A stretch of DNA of 64,000 bases from an uncultured Lentisphaeraceae bacterium (lineage in GTDB: Bacteria > Verrucomicrobiota > Kiritimatiellia > RFP12 > UBA1067). Below, one piece after another: positions 139-60,430 of this stretch (the first letter of the stretch is position 1; each line of letters opens with the position of its first letter). The position numbers were made by a program, and so were the translations under genes. Location: assembly GCA_964567665.1 (NCBI GenBank), contig CAZMNN010000010.1, forward strand, positions 70-64,069, in the 5' to 3' direction. The notes beneath the pieces were generated by a model that was not told the DNA's origin, did no database searches, and saw only the letters and a program-made list of their open reading frames with translations.

Positions 139-147
139 AAAAAAAAA
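139..147 (+). repeat. A9 homopolymer tract in intergenic region
   Basis: gtgcg-AAAAAAAAA-cataaaac read directly from the sequence. Confidence 0.9.
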
Positions 148-191
148 CATAAAACTATGCGTCCTCATATTATCGCAATTGAACAGGAGGC

Positions 192-278
192 GTAGATTCA
201 ATTCGTTCAATCTCAATCATGCAGATTTAATTCGCCCGATCTCAATCATGTAGATTCAACTCGCCCGATCTCAATCAT
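192..278. repeat. Three tandem 29-bp direct repeats
   Basis: GTAGATTCAATTCGTTCAATCTCAATCAT (192-220), GCAGATTTAATTCGCCCGATCTCAATCAT (221-249), GTAGATTCAACTCGCCCGATCTCAATCAT (250-278); no spacers. Confidence 0.9.
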
Positions 279-299
279 GCGGAGGATGAAAATTTACAG

Positions 300-327
300 T
301 TGAAAAAAAAAATGGATATGCTACCAT
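300..327 (+). promoter_or_regulatory. Putative sigma70 promoter containing an A10 tract (303-312)
   Basis: TTGAAA (300-305), 16-nt spacer, TG-c-TACCAT extended -10 (322-327). Confidence 0.55.
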
Positions 328-368
328 TCATGGCATTCAAATTTACGTAGAGAAAGGTGGCTGCTTCC

Positions 369-3300
369 ATGAAGACTGTCCTCGTTGCGCTGTGTGCAGG
401 CTTTGCCTTGGCTGGCATATGTGAAGATGACATATACGTCGGAACCGGAGAGATCGTCCGGCGAGAAATCAACTCTGACGCCGAGCAGTCCGGAAATGTG
501 GTCGTGTCGCCTCGCGGTACGCTGCTGAAGACAGGAAACGGCGTATGGACGTTGCCGACATCGAAAATCACGCAGGGGTGGAAAGCAAACGTTGCGGTAG
601 GTCAAGGCACAATGAGAATCCGGCATGACGCCGCGTCTGCAACGGGCGGATCGGCGGCGATTCCTCAGACGCTGCAGAACGCGGCGGTTTGGTTTGATGC
701 TCGTAAGGCAGATTCATTTGTGCAGGATGATTCGGGCAGGATTGTCGACTGGCTTGACTGCCGCGAAACTGGAAACGCCACTGACGGCTATGCGCTGATA
801 CGCGCACACACGGACAGTTCGTTTTCGACTCTCGCGCCTGAACTTAAGGAGAAGGACGGAACGACTGGTCTCTATTTCCAGGGGTTCGGCTCCGGCTGCT
901 GGATGAACCTGCTTTCCGCCGGTGGTGCACAGGCTGAAGTGCTTGCCAAGAATGTTTTTGTTGTGCAGGGGCAATTCGAGAAGCTTGCGCCGCTTCTGGG
1001 TGTCCGCAGCGGCTACCGCAACGGCAATGCGCATCTTGCGTTTGTTCCTGGATTGGCTGCATCCGGTGCGTTCCTGCCGATGTGGGTGAACGCGAGCTAT
1101 GACGTTTCAAGCATTTTGGCCGCCCGCACGTACATTGACGGTGATGAGGTGGATGCGTTCTCAAGCGTCGCCCAGGCGTTTCCGTCAAACCGCTTTGCCC
1201 TTGTCGAGGTAGAGTTTCTGGAGGCGGCCGGAGGCTTCCAGTGCTTCTTCAACGACCGCGACTACTTCGGCGGCGCTGCCGGCAATCGTGTCGGCGGAGA
1301 ATACATCTGCGAAGTCGTCGCATTCACGAATGCTCTGTCCGCAACCGAACGTCTGCAGGTCGAGGAGTATCTGATGTCGAAGTGGTTTGGGGTGAAACGT
1401 CCGGCAGCGCTGCACGTGACCGCCGCCGCAGGGACGAGAGTGGAGATGGAGTCAGCTGGAGATGGAGCGGAAGCGATTCCCGTATCCATTGGCGGCGGAG
1501 GCGATTTCGTTAAGGTTGGCTCCAACGGGGCCGATGTTGGAATTCCGGCTCTGCTTGAGGGATTCAACGGACGGTTCAGACTTGATGACGGAGTTCTCAT
1601 GATGCGAGGTTCAGCCCCGTTTGCCGTCGTCGCCGGCGAGCAGCTGCACGTCGATCTGCCGTACGGCGGCCCGGTAATGTCCAATGCCGTCGCAGAGTCG
1701 GATTCGTTCGTGAAGAGCGGCGCCGGGACGTTGCGGATAAATGCACTGCCGCCCGAAGTGAAGAGACTGAGAGTGTCGGCGGGCGAACTTGCGCTCGAAG
1801 CACCGCCTACGGTTGCAGCGTCAATTCCGGCGTCTTCATTGATCGTGACTGGATGTGTGCCGAACGCGAGTTTCGAGCAGGGGATTGAAGCTACTACATC
1901 GACGGTCAACCTTGGAGACGGATTTCAGGGATGGGCCGCGGTCGCTGGAGAAGGTTCAAGTGAAGCCAATCTTGCGTGGGTGAACCACAGCGCGTACAAA
2001 GGCGGCAAAAACGACTCCAGCCCATACTGGAAACTTCCGACGGAGGTGCCTGACGGCGAATGTGTGCTTGCCATAAACAAAGGTGCGAGCGTATGGACAA
2101 CAATCACGTTGCCGCAGGAGGGTGTATATGAACTTACGTTCAAGGGAGCATCGCGGATTGACAAGGCCGGACTTATCCTCGATCTGGCGATAGGCGAAAG
2201 CATGGATGCCGCAACATCGTTCGGCAGTTTCCGCTCCATCTACGCAGACGGACGCTTCTGTTCGTTCCGGTACCGTCTGCCGCGTCTTGGCGCCGGCAGC
2301 CACAGGCTCTGGTTCCGTCAGGTCGATGTCACCAAGGACTGCTGCTGTCTGATCGACGATCTCAAGCTGACGCGCATTGACGATACGTTGTTGCGCCGGG
2401 AAGTCCCGAACGGTTCGTTCGAGCAGTTCAGGGTCTCCTACGATGCGTTCACCAAGCCGATGCTGTTTGATTCCACAAACTTCGACGGTCTTGCGTCCTG
2501 GACTGTCGTTCAGGCGTCCGATGAATCGGCCAATTCTAATTATGGATGGACACTCGCTTCGTATGTTGGATCCGGCCCCGTAGTGCGCGGCATGGGATGG
2601 GATAATCGCAATTCCGATAAAGGATGGGCGAGCCAGTTCTGCAACGTGCGAGAATGCGATGACGGGTTCGTGCAGCTGTATCTTACGCAGGGCGCATCCG
2701 CGCACGTCACGTTCACACCGGCCGCCGGGCGGTACTTCGTCTCTGCCGACATCGGGCTTTATCGTTCAACGTTCGACAGCACGCCACATATGACGGCACA
2801 TTCGTACGTAAAGATCGGTGATGCGGATTACGTCTCGCTCGGCGACATTGACATCAACGGCAGATTCTCCATGAAGCGCCGCACGTTCCCGGTCGCCTTC
2901 ACGGTGGACGGGCAGACTGCAATCACGCTTAGGCTTGCGGCATCCATGGCACCCACGTCCTATTCCTACCCGACAGGTCATCTCCTTTTTGACAATGTGG
3001 AGCTTGCGCCTGTCGGCGAAGGAAAGAGCGAAGAGCTTGTCAAGAACGGGAGCTTCACTGCGGCATCCGGATGGGAATACGTGAACGGTGAAGGCCTTGC
3101 GGCCAATTACACGCCAAAGCGGCTTGAATGCGGCAAGGTCAGCGCTGCATACGGGTCGAACTGGATCGATGACTACGCGCTGGTGGTCATAGACAACGGA
3201 CTTGTGCATCAGGATGTCGCAGTTCCAGCCGCCGGATGGTACAGGCTTTCGCTTGCGGCGCGTACGCGGGTGTGGTTTGACGGTACTCCGAGAACTCCGC

Positions 3301-3728
3301 TGCCGGTTAGGTTCTGGCTTGCCAAGGATGGTGTCACTAACGTGATTGCAAACCTTACGCCTCCCGTCACGAACTTTACGATGTGGAGCTGGTCATTCAG
3401 GATGCCGGAGGCGGGCGTGTGGAAATTCGGCATCGAGGGGCTTGGCGAGGGCGGAATGGACCTGAACACCCTGATAGACAACGTTTCGCTTGTACACGAC
3501 CTGAACGTATCCGATGAGCCGGACATCGGTGAGGATGTGGCGATCTTCGTTGATGAAGGCGCAAGGCTGCGCCTTGACTTCGCGGGGACCGGCACGGTGA
3601 GCCGTCTGAAGATCAACGGCAGGAGCCGCTACGGTCTCGTGCGGGCTTCAGACTTCCCGGATGTCTTGAGCGGAGACGGTGCATTCTTCGTCCTTCCTCC
3701 GAAGGGTATGACGGTCATCATCAGGTGA
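369..3728 (+). CDS. Large secreted protein: signal peptide, autotransporter-associated beta-strand-like repeats, LamG/ConA-like module, CBM-like NxSFE domains, C-terminal GMTVIIR motif
   Basis: ORF 357..3728; start moved to ATG 369 giving MKTVLVALCAGFALA; KTGNGVWTL and KSGAGTLRI repeats; WFDA...EEYLMSKW module; PNASFE/PNGSFE/KNGSF repeats. Confidence 0.85.
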   Translation: MKTVLVALCAGFALAGICEDDIYVGTGEIVRREINSDAEQSGNVVVSPRGTLLKTGNGVWTLPTSKITQGWKANVAVGQGTMRIRHDAASATGGSAAIPQTLQNAAVWFDARKADSFVQDDSGRIVDWLDCRETGNATDGYALIRAHTDSSFSTLAPELKEKDGTTGLYFQGFGSGCWMNLLSAGGAQAEVLAKNVFVVQGQFEKLAPLLGVRSGYRNGNAHLAFVPGLAASGAFLPMWVNASYDVSSILAARTYIDGDEVDAFSSVAQAFPSNRFALVEVEFLEAAGGFQCFFNDRDYFGGAAGNRVGGEYICEVVAFTNALSATERLQVEEYLMSKWFGVKRPAALHVTAAAGTRVEMESAGDGAEAIPVSIGGGGDFVKVGSNGADVGIPALLEGFNGRFRLDDGVLMMRGSAPFAVVAGEQLHVDLPYGGPVMSNAVAESDSFVKSGAGTLRINALPPEVKRLRVSAGELALEAPPTVAASIPASSLIVTGCVPNASFEQGIEATTSTVNLGDGFQGWAAVAGEGSSEANLAWVNHSAYKGGKNDSSPYWKLPTEVPDGECVLAINKGASVWTTITLPQEGVYELTFKGASRIDKAGLILDLAIGESMDAATSFGSFRSIYADGRFCSFRYRLPRLGAGSHRLWFRQVDVTKDCCCLIDDLKLTRIDDTLLRREVPNGSFEQFRVSYDAFTKPMLFDSTNFDGLASWTVVQASDESANSNYGWTLASYVGSGPVVRGMGWDNRNSDKGWASQFCNVRECDDGFVQLYLTQGASAHVTFTPAAGRYFVSADIGLYRSTFDSTPHMTAHSYVKIGDADYVSLGDIDINGRFSMKRRTFPVAFTVDGQTAITLRLAASMAPTSYSYPTGHLLFDNVELAPVGEGKSEELVKNGSFTAASGWEYVNGEGLAANYTPKRLECGKVSAAYGSNWIDDYALVVIDNGLVHQDVAVPAAGWYRLSLAARTRVWFDGTPRTPLPVRFWLAKDGVTNVIANLTPPVTNFTMWSWSFRMPEAGVWKFGIEGLGEGGMDLNTLIDNVSLVHDLNVSDEPDIGEDVAIFVDEGARLRLDFAGTGTVSRLKINGRSRYGLVRASDFPDVLSGDGAFFVLPPKGMTVIIR

Positions 3729-3794
3729 GAACGTGCAAGATGAAATTCAGGTCAGCGAAAAATTGTGCGGCAAGGTGAAGGACGGGGACGGTAA

Positions 3795-6700
3795 ATGCGA
3801 TCAGTCAAAATGCAGTTCCGATCAGTGAAAAGGGGCTTCGTGTCGATGTTCAGCGCAGTGTGCGCATCGCTCTGCCTGTCGGCGTCCGTACACGAGTTCG
3901 GTCCGGCGGACAGAATAGAAATACATTCCGAGCCGAGGGGCTATGAGAAGTTCGTGACGGTATCGCAAGCGGCGGATCGCGTGGTGTTCGATTGCCGGGC
4001 GGCGTTTGCGAAGGGGATGCGCAATCTGGTGTGTCTGCTGCCGCAGTTCGAGGATCCGCAGCTTGCCGGCGAGGATATGCTTGCGGAGGTGTTCGTTGGC
4101 AGCGCCGATTCACAGGCGTTTGTGCAGCCATACCTACAGATGTGGAAGGAGATCGATGGAGTGCGCCAGTTCAGGGTATTGAGGTCGCGCGCTCCGTTTT
4201 TGACGGCGGGCAATGAGCACTCGATGGCGCGGTGCGTGTTCGTAGGCACCTGCCATGACAAATCCGGCGGTTACCGTCTGAGGTTCGATCTGCGGAAGCC
4301 GGAATACGGCAGTGGGGGCGTTTTCTGCTTTACGCGGGGGCGGGTGGCGCGTCTCGACGAGGTGCGCACAAGCGTGAAGCCGAAGACCGTTGCACCGGAA
4401 CTGACCATGCATCTTCCGTTCGACGGCTCTGCCGTGGCGACGTTCGCGAAAGGGGCGTCCACTCCGCTCACCGAGCGCGGGGTGTCGTACGAGCCTGGCG
4501 TGAATGGTCAGGCGGTGCGCGTCTCTCCGAAGAGCCGTACCGTACTTGAATATGCGTTCGCCGGAAACATCTCGCAGGAACGCGGTGCAGTCTCCATGTG
4601 GGCGAAGCGCGATGCGCGAGATGCCGGAACGAGCGGATGGCTTCTTTCGTCGCCCACGCCGTTCAACCTCCGTCTCGGCACCGGCGCCCTGTACCTCTGG
4701 CTGTGGGGGCAGAACGGCGCACGGCTGAGACTCGACACTTCCGACGACTGCGACGCATATGTCTGGCGCAGCGTCGCGTCGGACGGCGACTGGCATCATG
4801 TGGTGGCGAGCTGGAACGAGGCGGGCGGCAGTCTGTTCGTAGACGGCGCACGGTGCTACGACGATGTCGGCGGCGCATCGCTCTCGCCGTTGGAGAAGGC
4901 GCGCCAGCCGTATTCATTCAGCAATCTCGGCAAGTGGGATGCAGCCAAGCGCTTCTTCATCGGATCGCGGGGCGGTCTTGATCAGTTCGACGGACTGATC
5001 GACGAGGTTAAGATATATTCCGCCGCATTGACGAAGGAGCAGGCTCAGTCCCTTTACCGTGAGGGTGGCAGACAGCCTAAGCCACGTCCGGACTATGCCG
5101 CGATGTCGGCTGAACGCGGACGGAACATCTACGAGACGGCACCGGTCGGCAATGGCGGAGACCCCGGCGAGATGGAGCTTGTGCGCGAAGTCCGCTTTGA
5201 CCGTGCCGGGCTTGCGTCGCTGCGCATCCCCGGAACGAAGTTTGAAGTGGTCGGCCCGTCGTCCATGCGCACCACGGCGGACGGTGTAGACTATCTTGAA
5301 CTTGGAGGAGAGGAGTTCCACAGGATGGCGGTCGGATTTGAACTTGCCGCCGGCGAGCCGCTGTATGTGTTTGAGATCGATTATCCGGACGACGCCAAGC
5401 GCACGATGGACATGATTGTGCAGGATGCGTTCTCCCCATCATACGAAACAGTCAGGATGCAGGACTATGAAATGCAGGTAGGCGTGTTCACCGGCGGCGA
5501 TCTGCCTATCTCCGGCAAGATTCGCACACACAGGTGCGTGTACTGGGCGAGTTCGACAAATGTCGTGTTCGAGGCGATGACGGCACGAAAGGGAGAGCCT
5601 GCCGCCGTGTCTGCAATCCGTCTGTACCGTCTGAAGAACCGTGCGCTTCCGGCGGCGAGGATCGTTTCGCCAAAACCGAAGAACGGATGGGGGCGCACGA
5701 TCGGATGGTACTATGAGGATCCGTCAATCGACAGGGAGTTCGCTGTGGCGGATAACGCACATTCGCCGGAGCAGTGGATGGAGCTGGTCGACAAGATCGC
5801 CGCCACGATGAAATATCAGGGGTTGAACCTCTTTGCGTATCCTGGTGCGTGGTACAGCGGAATGATGGACGACCTCTACAATCCGCACGGACACGCCCCT
5901 GATTTTCTGCGGGCGTTCTATGAGCGTTTCGACCGTGAGGGTATCGGCGTGGTGCCGTTGATCAACCAGGAGACGCATCCCGTGCCGTCCGGTTCGCTCA
6001 CATACGACATGATCGTCTCCGGGGATGTCCACGGCACAATGTACAACGTCACAGCCACCGGAAAGCCGCAGAGCGGAGTCACGTATGTACCGTCGCTGTT
6101 CAACATCTGCCATCCGGACACGCAGCGTTATCTTGAAGGGATGATTGACAGATTTGTCGCGGACGGAATGAAGCATCCGTCGTTCAAGGGCGTGGGGCTT
6201 CACGTAAAGCACTCATCGATATGCTGGCTCGGCATGATCACGAGCGGCTACAACGACTACATGATAGACGGGTTTACGCGGGACACAGGAATCAAGGTGC
6301 CAGTGGACAGGCGAGATCCGATGCGCGGCAGGGCGTACGCCGAATGGCTCATGGCGAATGCGTACGAACCTTGGGTGCAGTGGCGGTGCCGTCAGGTGAG
6401 CGGATTCTGGGTGAAGATCGCCCGCAAGCTTGCCGCCGCCCGTCCGGATCTGAAGCTGTGGATAAACAACATCGCCAACCTTGACCCGATCATGGACAGG
6501 TTCGCGTCCCCGGACTACATGCGGCGCATGGCGCGTGAGGGCGGCCTTGACCGCGAGATATTCGCGAAGGAGTCGCCCAACGTCATCATGGGTCAGACGT
6601 CACTGCCGGCGGACTACCGTTTTGCGAAACCCGGATGGTACTACCAGACGCCGGCCGACTACGAATGTCAGCGCAGCTACCACACGAAGCCTTGCTATTG

Positions 6701-7277
6701 GGACTTCCTCGACAACGCGGCCTTCCCGCTCGTCCATATGCACGACCGCTACTGGGAATCCGCGCCCGGCGACAGGTCGCGGAACCGAAACCCTGATCTC
6801 CAGTTCAAGGCAAAATGGTTCCGTGAGGTGAAGTGGCGTGTCTCCACGCTGAATGCCGGCGGCCCGTATGCGATGGAGCATTACGCCGTTCCCTTGCGTT
6901 TCCGCGATGTGCTTGGATTCACGAAGGGCGGATATCTCGTCGGTACGTATGGCATGGAGCCGTATCTCGTTCCGTTCGCGCAGGCGTTTCGCGCACTGCC
7001 GGCGACAGGCATGGATACGATGCCGGGTGGCGGTGAGTTTGTGCGGCTCAGGTACGTGCGCCATGATGGACGCAGCTGGTTCTATCTTGTGAACACAGGG
7101 GTTGATCCGGTGTGCGTGGAGGTGCGCTTCCCTGACGGAACGCGCAATCTGGTCACAGGTGAGCCGGTTGCCGGAAAGGCGTCCATCACGCTTGGCCCAT
7201 ACGAACTTCGCTCGTTCGGCGCGGCAGCCGGAAAGCCGGCGATTCTCGACGTCCAATCGACATCGCGGCAGATGTGA
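3795..7277 (+). CDS. Secreted glycoside hydrolase-like protein (LamG domain plus TIM-barrel GH-like domain)
   Basis: 1160-aa ORF; LamG signatures (WHHVVASWNE, FDGLIDEVKIYSAALT); Trp/Tyr-rich barrel-like C-half; start could be ATG 3810. Confidence 0.7.
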   Translation: MRSVKMQFRSVKRGFVSMFSAVCASLCLSASVHEFGPADRIEIHSEPRGYEKFVTVSQAADRVVFDCRAAFAKGMRNLVCLLPQFEDPQLAGEDMLAEVFVGSADSQAFVQPYLQMWKEIDGVRQFRVLRSRAPFLTAGNEHSMARCVFVGTCHDKSGGYRLRFDLRKPEYGSGGVFCFTRGRVARLDEVRTSVKPKTVAPELTMHLPFDGSAVATFAKGASTPLTERGVSYEPGVNGQAVRVSPKSRTVLEYAFAGNISQERGAVSMWAKRDARDAGTSGWLLSSPTPFNLRLGTGALYLWLWGQNGARLRLDTSDDCDAYVWRSVASDGDWHHVVASWNEAGGSLFVDGARCYDDVGGASLSPLEKARQPYSFSNLGKWDAAKRFFIGSRGGLDQFDGLIDEVKIYSAALTKEQAQSLYREGGRQPKPRPDYAAMSAERGRNIYETAPVGNGGDPGEMELVREVRFDRAGLASLRIPGTKFEVVGPSSMRTTADGVDYLELGGEEFHRMAVGFELAAGEPLYVFEIDYPDDAKRTMDMIVQDAFSPSYETVRMQDYEMQVGVFTGGDLPISGKIRTHRCVYWASSTNVVFEAMTARKGEPAAVSAIRLYRLKNRALPAARIVSPKPKNGWGRTIGWYYEDPSIDREFAVADNAHSPEQWMELVDKIAATMKYQGLNLFAYPGAWYSGMMDDLYNPHGHAPDFLRAFYERFDREGIGVVPLINQETHPVPSGSLTYDMIVSGDVHGTMYNVTATGKPQSGVTYVPSLFNICHPDTQRYLEGMIDRFVADGMKHPSFKGVGLHVKHSSICWLGMITSGYNDYMIDGFTRDTGIKVPVDRRDPMRGRAYAEWLMANAYEPWVQWRCRQVSGFWVKIARKLAAARPDLKLWINNIANLDPIMDRFASPDYMRRMAREGGLDREIFAKESPNVIMGQTSLPADYRFAKPGWYYQTPADYECQRSYHTKPCYWDFLDNAAFPLVHMHDRYWESAPGDRSRNRNPDLQFKAKWFREVKWRVSTLNAGGPYAMEHYAVPLRFRDVLGFTKGGYLVGTYGMEPYLVPFAQAFRALPATGMDTMPGGGEFVRLRYVRHDGRSWFYLVNTGVDPVCVEVRFPDGTRNLVTGEPVAGKASITLGPYELRSFGAAAGKPAILDVQSTSRQM

Positions 7278-8466: not shown

Positions 8467-8467
8467 C

Positions 8468-23625: not shown

Positions 23626-23656
23626 TTGACAGTAAGGAAAAAAAAAATGATACCTT
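23626..23656 (+). promoter_or_regulatory. Putative sigma70 promoter with A10 tract (23638-23647) in the spacer
   Basis: TTGACA (23626-23631), 19-nt spacer, TG-a-TACCTT (23651-23656). Confidence 0.6.
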
Positions 23657-26296: not shown

Positions 26297-26325
26297 TTGC
26301 AAACGCAATGCCGCTTTGCTATAAT
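26297..26325 (+). promoter_or_regulatory. Sigma70 promoter
   Basis: TTGCAA-17 nt-TATAAT with TG extension. Confidence 0.7.
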
Positions 26326-30059: not shown

Positions 30060-30144
30060 AATGCCGGACGGAACATCAATCCGGCCGACCGCAGAGCATC
30101 CCGACGAAACCATTTAAATCACACAAGAACAAGGAGTGTCCATT

Positions 30145-34617: not shown

Positions 34618-34631
34618 TGCATTGCCGCAGG

Positions 34632-34672
34632 GTGGAGGTTGATGTCTGTCAATCTCCACTTTGTGCTTTTTT
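34632..34672 (+). terminator. Rho-independent terminator
   Basis: GTGGAGGTTGA-tgtctg-TCAATCTCCAC followed by TTTGTGCTTTTTT. Confidence 0.75.
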
Positions 34673-34738
34673 GAGTGGAAAAGGAAACGGCTTTTTGGCA
34701 TATTGTGCGGTGTCGGATTTTAAAGGTGGCAGGTTGCA

Positions 34739-45413: not shown

Positions 45414-45537
45414 GAGAGAGTTGGTAGATGGTAGTGAGTAGTTGGCAGTATGCGTTTCACCATCTGTCTACCAACTGCCCCCTACCCTCTACGCCAGCAC
45501 ACCTACCCTCTGCCCACTACCAACTATCCACTACTCC
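45407..45537. repeat. Inverted heptamer tandem arrays (NNGGTAG units then CTACCNN units)
   Basis: tctgtag gagagag ttggtag atggtag tgagtag ttggcag (45407-45448); ctaccaa ctgcccc ctaccct ctacgcc agcacac ctaccct ctgccca ctaccaa ctatcca ctactcc (45468-45537). Confidence 0.85.
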
Positions 45538-49720: not shown

Positions 49721-49747
49721 TTGAAAAAAAAATCAATATGGTATATT
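49721..49747 (+). promoter_or_regulatory. Putative promoter with A9 tract (49724-49732)
   Basis: TTGAAA, 15-nt spacer, TG-g-TATATT; perfect palindrome GATGAATTCATC at 49702-49713 just upstream. Confidence 0.55.
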
Positions 49748-53553: not shown

Positions 53554-53567
53554 GTTGACCATCAGGA

Positions 53568-56009
53568 ATGAAAGAAATGAAAGCAGTATATCGGATATGT
53601 TCCATGTGCGCGGCGGTTTCACTTGCCGCATTGGGCGAGACGCTTGAGATTGCGCCAACGGCGGACGTGAAGACGTGTCGGGCGCGGGAGATCAACAGGC
53701 TTGTGGCAAAGGCGAAGCCGGGCGATACGATTCTGTTCAGAAAAGGCGAGTATTTCGTCAACGAGTCGATTGCGATTCTCGACAGGACGAACGTCGTGTT
53801 CCGTGCCGAGCGCGGGACGGTCTTCCGGATGCGGTACAAAGGCGACGGACGCGCCTCGAGCGGGATGATGATGTTCGCCGTGCGTGGCTGTTCGGACGTT
53901 CTTCTCGACGGGTTCGCCTGCACCACGGAGAATCCGCCGAGCGGGACAGGTCGAGTGTCCGCCGTGAATCCAGATACGCGTGAGTACGACGTCCGGTTTG
54001 AGGGGGACACGAATTTTGCCGGCACGGAATCGCTTGTCATCGCCGACACGTGCGACGACTACGGCACGCCAGACGGCGTATTCACGGAATATGCGCTGAA
54101 TGACAGCGAGGAGCCTGACGGCAAGGGCGGCACGACGTTGCGCAAAAAGGGCATTCCGTACAAGCTGCTTTCAAAGGGGACGATACGGCTCAAGTTGCCG
54201 GCGGGATGCGACCTGACGAAACTGAGGGTCGGGCACCGCATTGTCTTTCGTTACGGTGGGCCTGGCGGAATCTTTTCGTTCCAGTCGAGCCATCGCGTGA
54301 CCGTGCGCGACGTCGATGTCTGGCGCTGCCCCAGCATGGTTGCCGTGATATCGGGGCGTTCCTCCGATTTCACGTTCGAGCGGCTCGCGGTTCGTCCGGC
54401 CGCCGGTTCGGGTGCGATTTTCAGCTCCAACGCCGACGGCATCCATGTGGCGAGCATGTTCGGGACGCTGACGCTAAAAGACTGCGTTTTCGACGGCATG
54501 GGCGACGATCCGCTGAACGTTCATGGCAAGTCGTCGGAGTTGAGCGCATACGACCCTGCAAGCGGAAAGGCGACGTGCACGTGGCAGCTGTTTCACAGGG
54601 GGCCGCAGCGCATGGCGAAGCTGTGGGCGGTCGCCGGGGACGTGCTGGACGTCTATGACCGCCGCACCTTCCTGTCCAAGGGGCAGGTGCGCGTCAAGGC
54701 CACGGAGGGCTATGGCGAGATGACGCTTGCGGACGCTACGGCGCCGCTCGCCATTGGCGACATCGTCATCAACGGGCATGACTGCCCGAAGGTGCGCGTC
54801 TCCGGCTGCCGTGTGCGGAACATCCGCTCGCGCGGATTCCTGCTGCAGTCGCGGGACATCGTGGTCAGCGACTGTTCGTTCGAGGGGATTGGCGGCGCCG
54901 GAATCATGGCGGCGCCGGACATCAACAACTGGTTCGAGTCGGGTCCGATATCCGACCTTCGTGTCGAGAGATGCAGCTTTGTGCGCTGCGCGATCCGTCC
55001 GTCGGTGCAGGCGGCGTTTCTCGTCAAGGTCAATCATGAAGGCCCCGTGGATGCCTATCCCAGCGGCGTTCACCGCAACATTTCACTTAAGGACTGCACG
55101 TTCCGGGATTGCCCCTCCACCAACGTCGTCTGCATCGCCTCGACGGACGGTGTCGAGGTCAAGGGAAACCGTTTCGAGAACTGCGGCGTAAAGCCTGTCG
55201 CGGTCATCAACTGCACTCGCGTGGATGCAGATGCCGCAGGGGGAGCGGATGTCGTGCGGAATTCCGGAGGCTCAAAGCCGGTCACGATGATGTCCTTCAA
55301 CGTTCGCGTCGGTTGCGGGCTTGACGGTGCATGGCACATCCCTGAAGGCGAACTTGGGCATCTCCCGCAATGCGCTGACGTCATCAAGTCTGTCGATCCT
55401 GATTGGGTGGCGATACAGGAGATAGATCGCGGAACGAAGCGCACCGGACGCGTCGACCAGACCGCCGCCCTTGCAAGGCTCTGCGGCATGAACGGCACAT
55501 ACCTCAAGAAGATCGACTACGATGGCGGGGACTACGGAGTGGCGGTGCTGTCGAAGGAGAAGCCGCTTTCCGTGTCGAAGATCCTTGTTCCGGGGTCTGC
55601 CCACACGAGGTGCATCGCCATCCTTGAATTCAGGGACTACATCGTCGCCTGCACACATTTCCCGCTTGAGGAGTCGGCGCGTGTGAAAGCCGCCGAAATC
55701 GCCTGCCTGAATCTGTCAGGACGTGAAAAGCCCGTGTTCTTCGCAGGGGACTTCAATGCGCTCCCGGCATCGCCCACAATCGCGACGCTCAAGAAGACCT
55801 TTACGGTTCTGAGCGATTCGTCAAGGCCCACTTTCCGTTCGGACAAGCCAGACCAGTGCCTCGACTACATAATGGTTGATTCCGCCCATGCGGATTGCGT
55901 CAAGGTCGCCACGAGGGACGTAATAGCCGCGCCCAACGCGACCGACCACTGCGCAATCGTGGTAAAGGCGGAGCTTGCCGGTGGATGCCAGGCGACTGCG
56001 GGCAAATGA
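53568..56009 (+). CDS. Fusion: GH110-like parallel beta-helix glycosidase plus endonuclease/exonuclease/phosphatase (EEP) domain
   Basis: NADGIH...CVFDGMGDDPLNVHG; EEP motifs SFNVR, IQEID, ACTHF, AGDFNA, LDYI, TDH. Confidence 0.75.
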   Translation: MKEMKAVYRICSMCAAVSLAALGETLEIAPTADVKTCRAREINRLVAKAKPGDTILFRKGEYFVNESIAILDRTNVVFRAERGTVFRMRYKGDGRASSGMMMFAVRGCSDVLLDGFACTTENPPSGTGRVSAVNPDTREYDVRFEGDTNFAGTESLVIADTCDDYGTPDGVFTEYALNDSEEPDGKGGTTLRKKGIPYKLLSKGTIRLKLPAGCDLTKLRVGHRIVFRYGGPGGIFSFQSSHRVTVRDVDVWRCPSMVAVISGRSSDFTFERLAVRPAAGSGAIFSSNADGIHVASMFGTLTLKDCVFDGMGDDPLNVHGKSSELSAYDPASGKATCTWQLFHRGPQRMAKLWAVAGDVLDVYDRRTFLSKGQVRVKATEGYGEMTLADATAPLAIGDIVINGHDCPKVRVSGCRVRNIRSRGFLLQSRDIVVSDCSFEGIGGAGIMAAPDINNWFESGPISDLRVERCSFVRCAIRPSVQAAFLVKVNHEGPVDAYPSGVHRNISLKDCTFRDCPSTNVVCIASTDGVEVKGNRFENCGVKPVAVINCTRVDADAAGGADVVRNSGGSKPVTMMSFNVRVGCGLDGAWHIPEGELGHLPQCADVIKSVDPDWVAIQEIDRGTKRTGRVDQTAALARLCGMNGTYLKKIDYDGGDYGVAVLSKEKPLSVSKILVPGSAHTRCIAILEFRDYIVACTHFPLEESARVKAAEIACLNLSGREKPVFFAGDFNALPASPTIATLKKTFTVLSDSSRPTFRSDKPDQCLDYIMVDSAHADCVKVATRDVIAAPNATDHCAIVVKAELAGGCQATAGK

Positions 56010-56040
56010 AATGTTCCGCAGTCTTTGCCGAAAATCGGCT

Positions 56041-56069
56041 TTGACTTGCGGAGTGCGATTTGATAACCT
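56041..56069 (+). promoter_or_regulatory. Sigma70 promoter, probable leaderless transcript
   Basis: TTGACT-17 nt-TAACCT, 7 nt before ATG 56077. Confidence 0.65.
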
Positions 56070-56076
56070 TGCGCAC

Positions 56077-57543
56077 ATGAAAAAAATGACATTTGAAAAG
56101 TTGGTGCTGCTGTCCGTTTCGGCGGCGGCTTTCTGTGTCCCCGCATTGGGGTTTGACGTGTCCGTGTGGCGAGGAGAGACATTCTCGACGCTCGTTCCGG
56201 ACAACGTGGAGCTTGGCGAATCGCCCAAGGGGATAGACGTAAGGCGCGGATCGCTGCGGCCGGTCAAGTATCGTCCGTCAGCAGACAGCCTTCATTTGAA
56301 CGAATGCTACGATCGCGTGGACTGGGATGCGGCGTCCGGCGGACCGGTCGTTGCGGAGATAACCGTCTCGCGTGACACGAAGCCCGGCGTATACAGGTGC
56401 GGCGGCATGAACGTGCGCGTTGTGGATCGGGTGCTGCCGCCTGCGAAGGAGTGGAAGTACTATCTCGATCTCTGGCAGCATCCGTGGTCGGTGGCGCGCA
56501 TGGCGAACGTCGAGCCGTTCTCCAAGGCGCACTATGCCGCGATGCGTCCCGTGTGGGAACTTCTCGCGACGGCCGGACAGAAGGCGCTCACCGTCACGCT
56601 GCTCGACAGGCCGTGGAACCACCAGTGCCGCGACGCATACGGCACCATGGTCGCAAGCCGGAAGGACGCTGACGGCAAGATGACGTTTGACTATTCAATC
56701 TTCGACGAATACGTCGAGTTCGGGCGCAGCTGCGGCATCGGCCCGCACATCGCCTGCTACACGATGTGTCCGTGGGGGAACCGCGTTGGCTGGATCGATG
56801 CGAACGGCAATAAGGTCGAGGTCGTCGCCAAGCCCGGCACGAAGGAGTTTGAGGATTTCTGGGGGCCGTTCCTTGAGTCGTTCACTGCGCATCTGAAGGA
56901 GAAGGGCTGGTTCAACGACACGCTGATATCGATGGATGAACGTGCGCCGGAGGACATGAAGATCATCGCGGACTTCATCCAGTCACGCGCTCCGGGGATG
57001 AAGATTGCGCTTGCCGGCAACAGGAAGCCGAGCGAGTTCAAGGGGATAACCCTTGACAGCTACTCGCAGTACGTCGGGCACATCACCGATGATTTTCTTG
57101 CGGAGGTGCCGGAACGCAAGGCCAAGGGATATGTGACGACGCATTATGTGTGCTGCGGCCCGAACCGTCCGAACACGTTCCTTTCGTCGCCGACGGCCGA
57201 GAACTTCTGGGTGGGCGTGTATCCCGGCATGGTTGGGCTTGACGGACTTCTCCGCTGGGCGTGGAACAGCTGGCCCGAGAATCCGGTTGCGGATGGCTCG
57301 TTCGGCAACTGGCGCGCGGGAGACGTGTTTCTCGTGTATCCCGGCGCGGCTCCGTCGTACCGCTTCCTCGAACTCCGCAACGGCATTGCGACGGCCGAAA
57401 AGCTGCGCATCCTCAAGGAGCAGGGGCTTTTCAAGGATGACATCGCCGCTCTCGCAAAACGCTACAACTGCAAGGATGCGCTGGAGGGCAAGGCCAACGT
57501 CACGAAGCTGCGGCAGGATGCGCTGGAGCTCGTGAATCGCTGA
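56077..57543 (+). CDS. DUF4091/GH123-like glycoside hydrolase (beta-N-acetylgalactosaminidase-like)
   Basis: YYLDLWQHPWSVAR, ISMDERAPEDM, DGLLRWAWNSWPENP, GDVFLVYPG...SYRFLELRNGI; signal peptide from ATG 56077. Confidence 0.75.
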   Translation: MKKMTFEKLVLLSVSAAAFCVPALGFDVSVWRGETFSTLVPDNVELGESPKGIDVRRGSLRPVKYRPSADSLHLNECYDRVDWDAASGGPVVAEITVSRDTKPGVYRCGGMNVRVVDRVLPPAKEWKYYLDLWQHPWSVARMANVEPFSKAHYAAMRPVWELLATAGQKALTVTLLDRPWNHQCRDAYGTMVASRKDADGKMTFDYSIFDEYVEFGRSCGIGPHIACYTMCPWGNRVGWIDANGNKVEVVAKPGTKEFEDFWGPFLESFTAHLKEKGWFNDTLISMDERAPEDMKIIADFIQSRAPGMKIALAGNRKPSEFKGITLDSYSQYVGHITDDFLAEVPERKAKGYVTTHYVCCGPNRPNTFLSSPTAENFWVGVYPGMVGLDGLLRWAWNSWPENPVADGSFGNWRAGDVFLVYPGAAPSYRFLELRNGIATAEKLRILKEQGLFKDDIAALAKRYNCKDALEGKANVTKLRQDALELVNR

Positions 57544-57554
57544 TCCGGCTTCAG

Positions 57555-58010
57555 ATGAAGATTCTTGTAGATGGCAGACTGCCAGCCGCAATTGGCCTCA
57601 AAAGGGCTGCGGTGGCGTCTGCCGCTTCGTATTTTGCCGGGCGGTCACGGCGTCGCATCGGCAATCCCGTATGGCACGAAGTCGAAGTGCATCTGATAGA
57701 CGATGCAATGTCGGATGAAGTGCATCGGGCGATAATGGGCATAGCCGGCGCCACGGACGTGGTCACGCAGGCGTACGATTCAATTCCTCCGGAGGAGCCG
57801 GGGCTGTACGGCGAGCTGTTCGTGAACACGGATCAGGCGTTCCGCGCAGCGCCGAAGCGGCCAGGGTGGAATGCCGCCAAGGAGCTGCTGCTGTACATAG
57901 CGCATGGCATGGATCACCTTTCAGGCGCGGACGATCATGAGGAGCGGGACTACCGCGCCATGCGCCGCAGGGAGCTGGGCTGGATTCGCGACTGTCCGGC
58001 CACGCCCTGA
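57555..58010 (+). CDS. ybeY: rRNA maturation endoribonuclease YbeY
   Basis: ATDVVT, GELFVN, LYIAHGMDHLSGADD, AMRRRE. Confidence 0.8.
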   Translation: MKILVDGRLPAAIGLKRAAVASAASYFAGRSRRRIGNPVWHEVEVHLIDDAMSDEVHRAIMGIAGATDVVTQAYDSIPPEEPGLYGELFVNTDQAFRAAPKRPGWNAAKELLLYIAHGMDHLSGADDHEERDYRAMRRRELGWIRDCPATP

Positions 58011-58044
58011 GGTCAACTTTTCGGGTCAATCAGCGATTTGCATA

Positions 58045-58074
58045 TTGACGCAAGGGATATGGTTGTGATACCCT
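58045..58074 (+). promoter_or_regulatory. Putative sigma70 promoter
   Basis: TTGACG-18 nt-TACCCT with TG extension. Confidence 0.45.
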
Positions 58075-58146
58075 ATCTCTCTGTTGCGAGATGTGGTTCG
58101 TTTCGTCCGTTGGACGTTGGCGATGAAATCTGAAAGGAGAAGACTC

Positions 58147-60430
58147 ATGGTTGACGCTTGGAGTGCTGTTTCAGAAGGGATTTTTAGGAAAAAAAAAATC
58201 ACTTTGTGCATCTGTCGCGTGTGTTCTGGCGGGCGGCATCTTTCTGACCGCCGACGCTGAGGACTGGAAGATCGATTCGGTGGACGATCTCACGGCGGCG
58301 CTTTCGCAAGCGGCTTCGGGTGATGTCCTGCTGCTGAATCCGGGGGTCTATGATCTCGCCGGAACGGAAATGGATGAAGAGGGGCATTCGCATCTTGTTG
58401 TGGATAGGCCTATAGAGATGCGCTGCACGGACGGCTTGTCCTGGCGCACGGCATCAGATGGCCTTTCGGGCGCAGTTCTGAAGGGCGGCAGTTCGATGCG
58501 CATTCTGCGTGTCAAGACGGCAGCATCATTCAGTGGCATATCCTTTGTGGACGGAAAGACGTCAGATGACGGCGCCGGCGTATGGATAGATGTCAGCGGC
58601 ACCAGCGACGTGGTCAACTTCACGAATTGCGTGTTCAAGGCCTGCCGCAGTGAAAATGGAGATGGTGGAGGCATCTGTTCGCCTTATTCTGCGACGGCCG
58701 TTGCTCGTGATTGCCGGTTTGAAGGCAACGAGGCGCAGAAGAACGGTGGCGGCGCAATGAAGGGGTTCTATTACTCCTGCGTCTTCTCCAACAACGTGGC
58801 TGTGGCTGCCGGGGGCGGGGCGGTTTCAAGCGGGGAGATGACGGATTGCGTGTGCGGCGGCAACAAGGCGAAGTGGGGCGGCGCAGGGAGCTACGTAACG
58901 GCATCCCGCTGCACCTTCACCGGAAACAGCAGCGGCATTGTCGGTGGAGCGATGTCCAATTCTCACGCAACCGATTGCGCATTTGACGCAAACGTCTCCG
59001 ATGACAAGGGGGGCGCTCTTTACAGCGATGGACTGTATAAGGTGCGTGGATGCACGTTTGCTCAAAACCGCGCGAGGACGAACGGCGGTGCGATATGTGG
59101 TGGACACGCAGTGAGCAATTGCTCGTTCTACGGCAATTCCGCCGCGAATGGCGGTGCGTTGTACGGTGTGCGGACAGCATCGTCTCTATTGGCGGTGCAG
59201 CCGGTTGCGGTGATGGATTCCAGTTTCCTCACAAACACCGTGTCCGGAAGCGGCGGCGCAGTCGCAGAGTGTGACGTTGCATCCTGCCTGTTTGAGGGCA
59301 ATGAAGCGGATAAAGGCGGAGCAGTCACGCAGTCCACGCTTGTGGACTGCGAACTGATTGGCAACAAGGCGAACACCTATGGCGGCGCCGCCTATGAAGT
59401 GGAGACTTGCCGGGATTGCACTTTTGCAGGCAATTCTGTAGTCAGATATGATGGAGGCGCAATCTACCAGACCAAGGCGGGTGCAATCCTTTCCGGATGT
59501 GAGATTGCGAGCAACAAGGTGGTTGGTGCATATCGAAACGGTGGCGGCATATTTTGCACAGCCGGAGGCAGTTCCATGCTCGTCACGAACTGCCTCATCA
59601 TGGCGAACAGTGCGGAGGGGACATCCTCCGCAGGTGGCGTATATGGGGCGACGAATGTAGTCGGCTGCATCTTCCGCGACAACACAAGCGGCTTCTATTC
59701 GGGTCACGCATGGTACTCCGCCTTTCGCGACTGCCGATTCACCGGAAAGGGCGAGGTCGCGATGAGCCGCCTCTACAACTGTGAACTTTACGGCTATCGT
59801 GCGAACAAAGATGACTATTCTGCGCCGCTTGTCGCCAACGAGAGGGAAGAATGGCGGAAGGAGAGTGGATTTCCGGTATTTGAGGCGGTGAATTGCCTTT
59901 TCCGGGATTTGTCCTGCGATGCCATAGTCCGAGTGACCGGTGACGAGGCATACTTCTACAACTGCACGTTCGCCAGCAACGTGTGCGAGAATTCGTTCCG
60001 TCTTCTGCAGGGGAACAATGCAAAGGAGCCGTCGCTGAACGTGGCCAATTGCGTGTTTGGCGGCAACCGCGCAAAAGATGGCGCAGCTGCGGGCGTAAAG
60101 GTCAGCATCGGGTTCACTCCGGTTGCGGCGGATGTGTCGCTCAGTAACGTTCTTTCGGAGGGATACGATCTGCCGTCTTCAATCGGCGCTTCGCAGACAT
60201 CCGGACTTTTGACCGGAGCCGTTCGATTCTGCGGTGATGACAACTTCTGGAACGAACCTGCCTATGCGCTTCGTCCATCTGGGCGGTGGGTGGATCGGGG
60301 CGTGGCCCTGCCATGGTCGGCGGATGCGGTCGATCTCGCAGGACGTCCGCGTGTGCGCGGTAAAGGCGTAGATCTCGGCTGCTATGAGTTTCAGTCCATG
60401 CTGCCAGGCATGAAGATATCCATTCGTTGA
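58147..60430 (+). CDS. Secreted beta-helix protein with GGA[IVL] (Pmp-like) repeats, choice-of-anchor-Q-like tail and C-terminal GMKISIR; start possibly frameshifted at A10 (58189-58198)
   Basis: Many N.A..GGA[IVLM] repeats; DLAGRPRVRGKGVDLGCYE; AGGAG SD 7 nt before ATG 58147, which is in frame only with A9; in-frame TTG 58151 is an alternative. Confidence 0.8.

What the first reader, a model, noticed from the sequence alone, without database searches (positions are those of the whole stretch)
139..58198. Candidate poly-A slippage (phase-variation) system controlling large secreted proteins
Seen: six A9/A10 runs (139-147, 303-312, 23638-23647, 26383-26392, 49724-49732, 58189-58198) in GC-rich DNA, all on the + strand. 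Five sit at the 5' end of large secreted-protein genes; I saw none at housekeeping genes or inside long ORF bodies. Three lie in or at -35/-10 spacers (16, 19 and 15 nt) and two uncouple an ATG from a signal peptide. Established: homopolymer slipped-strand mispairing switches surface genes in contingency loci, and RNA polymerase can slip on A/T runs of about 9 or more. Inference: a stochastic ON/OFF repertoire of adhesins and glycan enzymes in a lineage where I know of no such description. The spacer deviations go in both directions, which argues against a uniform base-calling bias.
Basis: partly seen in the sequence, partly recalled or inferred. Interest (0 to 1): 0.8.

Follow-up and report, generated by a model that had tools for sequence, protein, structure and literature searches.

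The report
Hypermutable poly-A switches on secreted-protein genes
An uncultured gut bacterium (Kiritimatiellia/Lentisphaerae-like) carries runs of 9-10 A's at the head of every secreted-protein gene cluster in this window, and these runs are the only places where independent assemblies differ by insertions or deletions, so they look like classic slippage-based on/off switches in a lineage where none has been described.

Summary
The window has six A9/A10 runs, all on the sense strand, where about 0.03 are expected, and no A8 and no T, G or C run of 7 or more. Each sits in the promoter or first codons of a secreted-protein transcription unit.

About 40 independent public assemblies of the same species (99.4-100% identical) were compared over roughly 440 kb. 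Every net indel falls inside these tracts:
- Site 303: A9/A10.
- Site 23638: A9/A10.
- Site 49724: A9/A10.
- Site 58189: five length alleles.
- Site 139: A9/A6.

Length states recur on different SNP backgrounds. One contig has 0 SNPs in 13.7 kb and differs only at a tract.

Tract 26383 is A10 in 11 of 11 sequences and in the sister species, always out of frame with its ATG. The gene is nevertheless under strong purifying selection (dN/dS 0.09). A third species carries both A9 (in frame) and A10 (out of frame).

The promoter form TTG-A10-N9-TAnnnT recurs 14 times in five related gut MAGs, upstream of large signal-peptide proteins.

Best reading: simple-sequence contingency loci, that is, phase variation through promoter spacing and reading frame. 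RNA-polymerase slippage probably makes the coding OFF states leaky. This is a new member of a known kind. Switching rates and expression effects were not measured.

The parts
139..147 (+). A9 tract in the intergenic region, 22 nt after the upstream gene's stop codon. It is polymorphic: A9 in four sequences and A6 in two. Its role is unclear and no promoter was assigned.
194..280 (+). Tandem repeat of 29 bp, three copies, lying between the two upstream tracts. The divergent haplotype has two copies.
   Evidence: Tandem Repeats Finder; L115 and L117 have two copies.
300..327 (+). Promoter-like site TTGAAA-16-TACCAT with a TGn extended -10. The A10 tract (303-312) forms the 3' half of the -35 hexamer and the first 7 nt of the spacer. 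The tract is A10 in three sequences and A9 in three.
   Evidence: L114 has 0 SNPs over 13,728 nt and differs only at this tract.
369..7277 (+). Two large signal-peptide proteins downstream of the 303 promoter: an unknown protein with a sub-threshold match to an autotransporter-type beta-strand repeat, and a LamG-domain protein. Short gaps continue through the C5 methylase gene to the GH78 gene, which ends at 14690.
23626..23656 (+). Promoter-like site TTGACA-19-TACCTT with a TGa extended -10. The A10 tract (23638-23647) lies inside the spacer. The tract is A10 in five sequences and A9 in six, and the states recur on different SNP haplotypes.
23770..26205 (+). BspA-type leucine-rich-repeat surface or adhesin-like protein (811 aa) with a signal peptide.
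26297..26325 (+). Ordinary promoter TTGCAA-17-TATAAT with an extended -10, for the GH42-like unit. It places tract 26383 in the transcribed region.
   Evidence: It is conserved in species X.
26372..26392 (+). ATG followed by ACC TTC AG and then A10 (26383-26392). The ATG is +1 out of frame with the signal peptide that follows, and A9 would restore the frame. The tract is A10 in 11 of 11 sequences of this species.
   Evidence: The ortholog in species X is also A10. Species Y has both A9 and A10.
26394..39256 (+). Signal peptide and body of the GH42-like protein (ends at 30059), then a 1490-aa secreted protein (30145-34617) and a GH95-like protein (34739-39256). These probably form one transcription unit.
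   Evidence: dN/dS 0.09-0.12.
49721..49747 (+). Promoter-like site TTGAAA-15-TATATT with a TGg extended -10. The A9 tract (49724-49732) overlaps the -35 hexamer and spacer. The tract is A9 in nine sequences and A10 in two, and A10 in species X.
49846..57543 (+). Three secreted proteins: an unknown 1235-aa protein, a protein with beta-helix and endonuclease/exonuclease/phosphatase domains, and a GH123 enzyme. The invariant A7 at 56080-56086 encodes the KK of the GH123 signal peptide.
58045..58074 (+). Ordinary promoter-like site TTGACG-18-TACCCT with a TGa extended -10, upstream of the Pmp-repeat gene.
58147..58198 (+). ATG 58147, preceded by AGGAG 7 nt upstream, followed by a 42-nt leader and then A10 (58189-58198). 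The ATG is out of frame with the signal peptide. Five alleles are seen: AGG-A10, AGG-A9, AGG-A7, AG-A10 and AG-A9.
58199..63172 (+). A protein with Chlamydia-type polymorphic-membrane-protein repeats and a beta-helix (ends at 60430), then a 909-aa secreted protein (60443-63172).

Best explanation
The A9/A10 runs are hypermutable simple-sequence tracts, that is, contingency loci. Slipped-strand mispairing during replication adds or removes an A.

In three units the tract sits inside a sigma-70-type promoter with an extended -10. A 1-nt change moves the -35/-10 spacing between 15 and 16 nt (sites 303 and 49724) or between 18 and 19 nt (site 23638). This is expected to raise or lower transcription of a whole operon of secreted proteins.

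In two units the tract encodes the Lys-Lys-Lys of the signal-peptide n-region. A9 puts the Shine-Dalgarno-served ATG in frame with the signal peptide and the mature protein (ON). A10 or A7 does not (OFF, or very low expression through a poor alternative start).

Because each unit has its own tract, a population carries a mixture of expression states for adhesin-like proteins (LRR, Pmp-repeat) and glycan-degrading enzymes (GH42-like, GH95, GH123, GH78).

RNA-polymerase slippage on the transcribed A10 runs probably yields some A9 transcripts, so the coding OFF states are leaky.

Shown here: the tracts, their positions, the frame and spacer arithmetic, tract-restricted and recurrent length polymorphism, conservation across species, and purifying selection on a gene held at A10. 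Inferred: the effect on transcription, the switching rate and its reversibility, and slippage at the RNA level.
For: (1) Enrichment and placement. Six runs of 9 or more A's are present where about 0.03 are expected. All are on the sense strand, and all are at the head of secreted-protein units and nowhere else.

(2) Indels confined to tracts. 29 assemblies aligned over 374,106 nt, and five more over about 68 kb, show net indels only in the tracts. A6/A7 runs and everything else are stable.

(3) Recurrence. A9 and A10 both occur on each of two SNP haplotype groups at sites 23638 and 303. L114 has 0 SNPs over 13,728 nt and differs from the window only at tract 303, and L007 has 0 SNPs over 6,063 nt and differs only at tract 58189.

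(4) Not technical noise. On the same 10 contigs the 23638 tract changed in 6 and the 26383 tract in 0 (p=0.011). Identical variant contigs recur in several samples. Both states occur within one sequencing project.

(5) ON and OFF alleles exist. At site 58189 there are four distinct 760-aa ATG-start products against 755-759-aa products, and five DNA alleles. At the 26383 ortholog in species Y, A9 gives MRNMRKKNAF... (1228 aa, 4 variants) and A10 gives 1217-aa calls (7 variants), with contigs of 13,125 and 13,126 nt and identical flanks.

(6) Conservation. Species X keeps A10 at the orthologs of 26383, 49724 and 23638. The pattern TTG-A10-N9-TAnnnT occurs 4+4+4+1+1 times in five related gut MAGs, whereas every other genome had one hit. 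Almost all of these clade sites lie 35-77 nt upstream of signal-peptide proteins of 231-1790 aa, mostly above 650 aa.

(7) Ordinary promoters in the window use 17-18-nt spacers, while the tract promoters sit at 15/16 or 18/19 nt.

(8) The GH42-like gene has dN/dS of 0.09 at dS 0.42 between the two species that both hold A10, so the gene is in use.

(9) RNA-polymerase slippage on 9 or more A's is established (PMC1088944).
Against: No read-level data were available, so heterogeneity within a sample and true switching rates are unknown. The polymorphism seen is between samples and strains.

Tract 26383 shows no variation in 11 sequences of this species, and cluster 1 (this species plus species X) has no member longer than its 1217-aa representative. 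Simple unbiased switching does not predict that.

The promoter tracts show only two states (A9 and A10), and A10 dominates in the reference genomes of the clade (12 of 14). A fixed structural role for the A-tract would also fit this.

Neither observed spacer state equals the 17-nt optimum, so which state is ON is a guess.

Extended -10 promoters depend less on -35 geometry, which could blunt the effect of spacer length.

At site 58189, A10 and A7 keep an in-frame TTG or GTG start, so OFF may be only a reduction in expression.
Confidence: 0.75

Rival explanations
1. Programmed recoding. The coding tracts are meant to be A10, and the secreted proteins are made only from the fraction of transcripts in which RNA polymerase drops one A or adds two, or by ribosome sliding on the lysine codons. 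This would give a fixed low expression level or a second short product. DNA-level length changes would be incidental.
For: Site 26383 is A10 in 11 of 11 sequences of this species, in all sequences of species X, and in 7 of 11 protein variants of species Y. The leader differs by 3 nt between species W and X (11 against 14 nt), so the same +1 offset is kept. The gene is under strong purifying selection despite the offset. A neighbouring A10 on the same contigs varies freely. Slippage on 9 or more A's is documented in Thermus dnaX and Shigella mxiE (PMC1088944).
Against: In-frame A9 alleles exist in species Y and at site 58189, and they give ordinary signal peptides. More distant orthologs have ordinary in-frame starts with no tract. 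No RNA data are available. This reading does not explain the promoter tracts.
Confidence: 0.2
2. The promoter A-tracts are fixed structural promoter elements: a rigid or curved A-tract next to -35, or a regulator site. They would be selected for sequence and not for mutability, and the A9/A10 polymorphism would be a tolerated by-product of intrinsic instability.
For: A10 predominates in 12 of 14 clade promoters from four species. The arrangement TTG-A10-NNN-ATWTGSTAY is conserved, always with A on the non-template strand. Only two length states are seen.
Against: A9 and A10 are each common at three separate promoters (3:3, 6:5, 9:2) and recur on different haplotypes. That is not the pattern of a rare deleterious by-product. 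The same tract type in coding leaders switches the reading frame. Uninterrupted tracts persist across species, with no substitutions that would stabilise them.
Confidence: 0.2
3. Sequencing or assembly artefact at homopolymers.
For: Homopolymers of about 10 nt have raised indel error rates. The comparison sequences are short-read metagenome assemblies of unknown coverage.
Against: Site 26383 is reproducibly A10 in 11 of 11 sequences, while site 23638 on the same contigs is split 6:4. Identical variant contigs are recovered from several samples: the A10 contig in 20 or more, the A7 contig in 2, and the AG-A9 contig in 3. Two assemblers (Logan and MEGAHIT) and a SPAdes MAG agree. The A7 run and all A6 runs never vary.
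Confidence: 0.03
4. The frameshifted genes are decaying pseudogenes.
For: In the window both coding tracts separate the best start codon from the ORF.
Against: The ORFs of 1208 and 759 codons are intact in all strains. dN/dS is 0.09-0.12 at dS 0.4-1.1. The signal-peptide frame stays hydrophobic across species. In-frame alleles coexist with the out-of-frame ones.
Confidence: 0.02

Closest known systems
Homopolymer tracts in -35/-10 spacers of surface-protein promoters: Mycoplasma hyorhinis vlp poly-A, Neisseria meningitidis porA poly-G and opc poly-C, Bordetella fim poly-C, Haemophilus hif (TA)n. These are recalled from my own knowledge. The Vlp system is listed in the review PMC11868660.
   Same: A mononucleotide tract lies between or overlapping the promoter hexamers of a family of surface or secreted protein genes. 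One-nucleotide changes alter the spacing. Each paralog has its own tract, which gives combinatorial repertoires. The vlp case even uses poly-A.
   Different: The host is a 59% GC, uncultured, glycan-degrading gut bacterium of the Kiritimatiellia/Lentisphaerae group, not a pathogen. In two of the three promoter cases the tract starts inside the -35 hexamer (TTGAAA...) and is paired with an extended -10. Only A9 and A10 are seen, giving 15/16 or 18/19 nt and never 17. The controlled units include glycoside-hydrolase operons. Expression effects were not measured.
Frame-switching homopolymers near the 5' end of surface-protein genes, notably the poly-G/C tracts in Chlamydia pmpG-family genes (PMC6740158). 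Mycoplasma poly-A tracts in lipoprotein leaders are a further example from my own knowledge.
   Same: A tract in the 5' coding region toggles the reading frame of a secreted or surface protein. The 58189 gene carries the same Pmp repeat (PF02415/TIGR01376), and that paper notes the superfamily is shared by Chlamydiae, Verrucomicrobia, Lentisphaerae and Planctomycetes. Frameshifted and intact alleles coexist without the signs of pseudogene decay.
   Different: The tract is poly-A, encoding the KKK of the signal-peptide n-region, rather than poly-G/C further inside the gene. No autotransporter domain was detected in the protein. One tract (26383) is held at the out-of-frame length across two species.
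Long mononucleotide repeats in Akkermansia muciniphila (PMC3048395).
   Same: It is a gut, glycan-degrading bacterium related to the same broad group. Long homopolymers are over-represented at gene ends, and the authors proposed phase variation from sequence alone.
   Different: In Akkermansia the tracts named are G8 and C10 inside capsule genes of a single genome, with no population data. Here the tracts are poly-A at promoters and signal peptides, there is direct between-sample length polymorphism, and a conserved promoter class is shared across species.
Transcriptional slippage on A9 or T9 runs: Thermus thermophilus dnaX, Shigella mxiE, IS elements (PMC1088944; review PMC5009743). Rescue of poly-A frameshifts in insect endosymbionts is a further example from my own knowledge.
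   Same: There is a run of 9 or more A's in the sense strand of a coding region, the downstream ORF is in another frame, and the out-of-frame length is conserved between two species.
   Different: No RNA evidence exists here. In-frame DNA alleles also exist. The tract sits in a signal peptide at the very 5' end of the gene, not at an internal junction between two ORFs.

Membership tests
Simple-sequence contingency locus (phase variation mediated by a simple-sequence repeat) | An uninterrupted repeat tract, longer than expected by chance, located in a promoter or the 5' coding region. | tested here: met
   Six A9/A10 runs are present where about 0.03 are expected. All lie in promoters or in codons 4-18 of a gene.
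Simple-sequence contingency locus (phase variation mediated by a simple-sequence repeat) | Tract length is polymorphic among closely related genomes, well above the background indel rate, with recurrent changes. | tested here: met
   All net indels in about 440 kb of aligned sequence fall in tracts. States recur on different SNP haplotypes, and some contigs with 0 SNPs differ only at a tract. Exception: tract 26383 is invariant in this species but variable in species Y.
Simple-sequence contingency locus (phase variation mediated by a simple-sequence repeat) | A length change alters the reading frame or the promoter geometry of the adjacent gene. | tested here: met
   The frame arithmetic is confirmed by the called products: 760 against 759/758 aa, and 1228 against 1217 aa. 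The spacers are 15/16 and 18/19 nt. The effect on transcription is inferred, not measured.
Simple-sequence contingency locus (phase variation mediated by a simple-sequence repeat) | High-frequency, reversible switching within a clonal population. | not testable with these tools
   This needs read-level or culture data. Only consensus assemblies were available.
Simple-sequence contingency locus (phase variation mediated by a simple-sequence repeat) | The targets are surface, secreted or host-interaction proteins, or restriction-modification systems. | tested here: met
   The targets are an LRR adhesin-like protein, a Pmp-repeat protein, secreted glycoside hydrolases and large signal-peptide proteins. 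An extra A9 lies in a restriction-modification/defence island just upstream of the window.
Programmed transcriptional slippage gene | A run of 9 or more A or T in the coding sense strand, with the functional ORF continuing in another frame. | tested here: met
   Sites 26383 and 58189.
Programmed transcriptional slippage gene | The out-of-frame genomic configuration is conserved across strains and species. | tested here: inconclusive
   Site 26383 is A10 in all sequences of species W and X, with a 3-nt leader difference that preserves the offset, and dN/dS is 0.09. However, species Y and site 58189 have in-frame alleles.
Programmed transcriptional slippage gene | The mRNA population contains non-templated A insertions or deletions that restore the frame. 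| not testable with these tools
   No transcriptome data are available.
Sigma-70-type promoter with extended -10 | A TTGnnn hexamer, a spacer of about 17 nt, and TGnTAnnnT. | tested here: met
   Consensus scans and a regular-expression search find these at sites 303, 23638 and 49724, and at the tract-free promoters at 26297, 39265 and 58045. About 70 nt around 49724 is identical in species X while the flanks diverge. These are consensus matches only, and no transcription start site has been mapped.

The most novel reading that the evidence does not exclude
Two linked ideas. First, the out-of-frame A10 in the signal-peptide leader of the GH42-like glycosidase is the selected genotype. It is fixed in two species under strong purifying selection, with the offset preserved through a 3-nt leader change. 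Export of the enzyme would then depend on RNA-polymerase slippage, or ribosome sliding, on the lysine codons, which would be a recoding-gated signal peptide. Second, the TTG-A10 promoter class forms a clade-wide, multi-locus set of phase-variable genes that governs glycan-degrading operons in a non-pathogenic gut lineage.
Probability: 0.2. Interest if true: 0.7.

Novelty: new member of a known kind. Interest (0 to 1): 0.58.

Why it matters
Multi-locus phase variation driven by simple repeats is known almost entirely from host-adapted pathogens. A 2025 review lists the apparent restriction of genomes with many phase-variable loci to pathogens as an open question that may reflect database bias (PMC11868660).

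Here an uncultured, GC-rich, glycan-degrading gut lineage shows at least five independent tracts in 64 kb, and a promoter class shared by at least five species. These control enzymes for glycan breakdown as well as adhesin-like proteins. If confirmed, three things follow:
- Stochastic switching of polysaccharide-degrading capacity is part of the ecology of this group.
- Homopolymer lengths should be treated as biological signal in metagenome-assembled genomes, not as error.
- Gene callers will systematically truncate or miss these secreted proteins. Here the products were called at 1208, 1211 or 1217 aa instead of about 1228 aa.

Tried and rejected
Exact-product look-ups for the LRR gene and the 49819 ORF found nothing, because I had chosen the wrong start codons; the true starts are 23770 and 49846.

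Two scans of the JGI metagenome collection, for variable-length alleles of tracts 26383 and 49724, found nothing. The organism appears to be absent from that collection.

A search for the run and project accessions in papers gave only unrelated hits, so the host and study of the samples remain unknown.

The TonB query found only one distant relative in the genome collection.

A terminator reading, with the A-run acting as the T-run of a minus-strand terminator, was rejected. No GC-rich hairpin is adjacent, and the genes are on the + strand.

A mobile-element or MITE origin for the promoter class was rejected, because only about 25 nt are shared and the flanks are unrelated.

Orthologs of the 58189 protein at 73% and 66% identity have unrelated N-terminal leaders, so they could not settle which start frame is ancestral.

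The T9, G10 and C14 tracts in more distant relatives lie in regions without clear genes and were not interpretable.

A genome-wide enrichment test could not be done, because only loci around matches can be fetched, not whole genomes.


Full report
**1. What is in the window**

The 64-kb window is 59% GC and almost all genes are on the + strand. Pfam and NCBIfam annotation shows housekeeping genes:
- icd, metH, an AdoCbl riboswitch with a TonB-dependent receptor and tonB;
- tRNA-Thr, an SIS-domain protein, a ROK-family kinase, coaE, rho, uvrA, folC-like and ybeY.

These are interleaved with blocks of large signal-peptide proteins:
- an unknown 1119-aa protein and a LamG protein (369-7277), followed by a C5 methylase, unknown proteins and GH78;
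- a BspA-type LRR protein (23770-26205);
- a GH42-like protein, a 1490-aa protein and a GH95-like protein (26372-39256);
- a 1235-aa protein, a beta-helix/EEP protein and GH123 (49846-57543);
- a Pmp-repeat/beta-helix protein and a 909-aa protein (58147-63172).

The closest reference genome is a MAG labelled 'uncultured Lentisphaeraceae bacterium' (CAYTWE01, 88-92% aa identity). The next relatives are MAGs labelled Kiritimatiellae or Kiritimatiellaeota from the Hadza metagenome dataset, sheep rectum and rumen, horse faeces and water-deer rectum.

**2.

All six runs are exactly as described.
- The A-run histogram is bimodal: A7 x1, A8 x0, A9 x2, A10 x4.
- No T, G or C run exceeds 6.
- About 0.03 runs of A9 or longer are expected.
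- Four runs lie in the 4.2% of the window that is intergenic, and two lie in the first 18 codons of a gene (P about 1e-7).
- Every secreted-protein transcription unit in the window is headed by a tract, and no housekeeping unit is.

- TTGAAA-16-TACCAT at site 303;
- TTGACA-19-TACCTT at site 23638;
- TTGAAA-15-TATATT at site 49724.

Each has a TGn extended -10. Tract-free promoters of the same type in the window have spacers of 17 or 18 nt: 26297 for the GH42-like unit, 39265 for tRNA-Thr, and 58045 for the Pmp gene.

The two coding tracts separate an ATG from a signal peptide by +1 nt, and A9 would restore the frame in both. I could not assign tract 139 to a promoter.

**3. Independent assemblies**

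Exact-protein look-ups with ybeY, folC, tonB and the 369 gene returned 34 contigs from many SRA runs (Logan) and ENA MEGAHIT assemblies. They are 99.4-100% identical to the window.

Over 374,106 aligned bases, plus about 68 kb more, every net indel lies inside a poly-A tract. The only other gap pair is a compensating alignment artefact in the LRR gene.

Tallies, including the window:

| Site | Length states |
|---|---|
| 303 | A10 x3, A9 x3 |
| 23638 | A10 x5, A9 x6 |
| 49724 | A9 x9, A10 x2 |
| 139 | A9 x4, A6 x2 |
| 58189 | AGG-A10 x9, AGG-A9 x1, AGG-A7 x2, AG-A10 x1, AG-A9 x2 |
| 26383 | A10 x11 |
| 56080 (A7 control) | invariant |

Length states recur on different SNP haplotypes at 23638 and 303. 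L114 has 0 SNPs over 13,728 nt and differs from the window only at tract 303. L007 has 0 SNPs over 6,063 nt and differs only at tract 58189.

Technical noise is unlikely for three reasons:
- On the same ten contigs one A10 changed in six and the other in none (Fisher p=0.011).
- Both states occur within a single sequencing project.
- Identical variant contigs recur in several samples.

**4. ON and OFF alleles**

At 58189 the protein cluster for this species has four distinct 760-aa products starting MVDAWSAVSEGIFRKKKSL. These use the ATG in frame, and the three with retrieved DNA or a matching contig length carry AGG-A9 or AG-A10. The cluster also has 755-759-aa products called from weaker in-frame TTG or GTG starts.

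At 26383 I call the window's species W and compare it with two relatives:
- All sequences of species W are A10.
- All sequences of the 92%-identical species X are A10 too. The leader is 14 nt in X and 11 nt in W, so the same +1 offset is kept.
- The shared 90% cluster has no member longer than its 1217-aa representative.
- The 81%-identical species Y has both alleles, with identical flanks. A9 gives MRNMRKKNAFLMAAIAAVSCG (1228 aa, four variants, contigs of 13,125 nt). A10 gives 1217-aa calls (seven variants, contigs of 13,126 nt).
- More distant orthologs (59-71%) have ordinary in-frame starts without a tract.

dN/dS for the gene is 0.09 between W and X at dS 0.42, and about 0.11 against Y. 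The gene is therefore functional although it is held at A10. This means either that ON variants arise often enough to be selected, or that A10 is decoded by slippage. RNA-polymerase slippage on runs of 9 or more A's is well documented (PMC1088944).

**5. A clade-wide promoter class**

Sites 303 and 49724, the 49724 ortholog in species X (A10), and two sites in more distant MAGs share the form TTG-A9/10-NNN-ATWTGSTAY.

- 14 hits are in five genomes of this clade: CAYTWE01 x4, CAKULV01 x4, CAMPAA01 x4, CAVJWR01 x1 and JAFXEA01 x1.
- Every other genome has one hit. Those are mostly low-GC genomes with the minimal A9.
- 12 of the 14 clade hits are A10 + N9, giving a 16-nt spacer. The two A9 hits have N11, giving 17 nt.
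- Almost all lie 35-77 nt upstream of an ATG that opens a signal-peptide protein of 231-1790 aa, mostly above 650 aa. One of these was checked and is not homologous to the window's secreted proteins.

**6. Interpretation**

The data fit simple-sequence contingency loci acting at two levels: promoter spacing and reading frame.

Not shown:
- within-clone switching rates;
- the transcriptional effect of A9 against A10 (neither state gives the 17-18 nt used by the ordinary promoters here);
- the contribution of slippage at the RNA level.

Two non-exclusive rivals remain open, each at about 0.2: programmed recoding at the fixed A10 of 26383, and a fixed structural role for the promoter A-tract. Artefact and pseudogene readings are poorly supported.

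**7. Comparison with known systems**

The mechanism is that of classic phase variation through homopolymer tracts. Promoter-spacer tracts are known from Mycoplasma vlp, Neisseria porA and opc, and Bordetella fim (from my own knowledge). 5'-coding tracts are known from Chlamydia pmpG poly-G/C (PMC6740158). The 58189 gene even shares the Pmp repeat.

A sequence-only proposal of phase variation through mononucleotide repeats exists for Akkermansia (PMC3048395). No paper in the library combines Kiritimatiell* with phase variation.

I therefore rate this as a new member of a known kind. The added interest is threefold: it is a multi-locus case in a non-pathogenic, uncultured gut lineage, it controls glycan-degrading operons, and one tract is held out of frame across species.

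Noticed in passing
window 194-280: A 29-bp tandem repeat (consensus AGATTCAATTCGCCCGATCTCAATCATGC, three copies) lies between tracts 139 and 303. The divergent haplotype (L115, L117) has two copies. It could be a regulator-binding array or a second variable element in the same upstream region.
   Followed up: partly
window 45468-45534; L032 19938-20065: Heptamer arrays (CTACCCA)n occur in both places: about 9.6 degenerate copies just upstream of the likely true uvrA start (ATG 45542), and 18 copies in species X downstream of ybeY. Gene callers alternate between a 964-aa and a 926-aa uvrA, with the longer call reading through the array.
   Followed up: partly
L032 19785-19798; L044 14972-14981; L037 18511-18519: Relatives carry other long homopolymers in non-coding DNA: C14 in species X, at the position where the window has the Pmp-repeat gene, plus a G10 and a T9. 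The C14 and the G10 are both preceded by CCGCTT.
   Followed up: partly
L113 3777-3785 (about 6 kb upstream of window position 1): A further A9 tract joins a fragment resembling an Mrr-type restriction enzyme (...GDGGIDVRG...QVKRWKANKTKKK) to a metallophosphoesterase ORF. It lies inside an island that also carries a HindVP-type restriction enzyme, a C5 methylase and RadC. So not all long tracts in this genome are at secreted-protein genes.
   Followed up: partly
window 7324-9595: A C5 cytosine DNA methylase and an unknown 375-aa partner lie inside the run of + strand genes downstream of the tract-controlled 369 promoter, with gaps of 46 and 1 nt. If they are co-transcribed, methylation could vary with the promoter tract. 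This was not tested.
   Followed up: no
window 19249-19321: An AdoCbl-II riboswitch (Rfam RF01689, 47 bits) lies upstream of the TonB-dependent receptor and tonB, next to the divergently oriented B12-dependent metH.
   Followed up: no
window 23580-23602: A perfect 9-nt inverted repeat, CAATACGCT / AGCGTATTG with 5 nt between the arms, lies just upstream of the 23626 promoter. It could be an operator or the end of the upstream transcript.
   Followed up: no
L033, L034/L143: Contigs filed under 'Clostridium sp. CAG:138' and 'Limosilactobacillus gorillae' encode a folC 69% identical to the window's. Their GC content is 56-63%, and the L034/L143 contig carries the clade's TTG-A10 promoter. They look like mis-binned Kiritimatiellia-like contigs.
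   Followed up: partly
L138, minus strand around position 145: One clade promoter has a second A10 only 12 nt upstream of the TTG-A10 (cccgA10cgcttttctgTTGA10...). This echoes the paired tracts 139 and 303 in the window.
   Followed up: no
window 58180-58188 compared with L125-L127: The bases just 5' of tract 58189 also vary: AGG against AG, and TTTTTAG against TTTTCAG. One variant converts an in-frame TAG of the third frame to CAG. The leader as a whole is a local hotspot, not only the A-run.
   Followed up: partly
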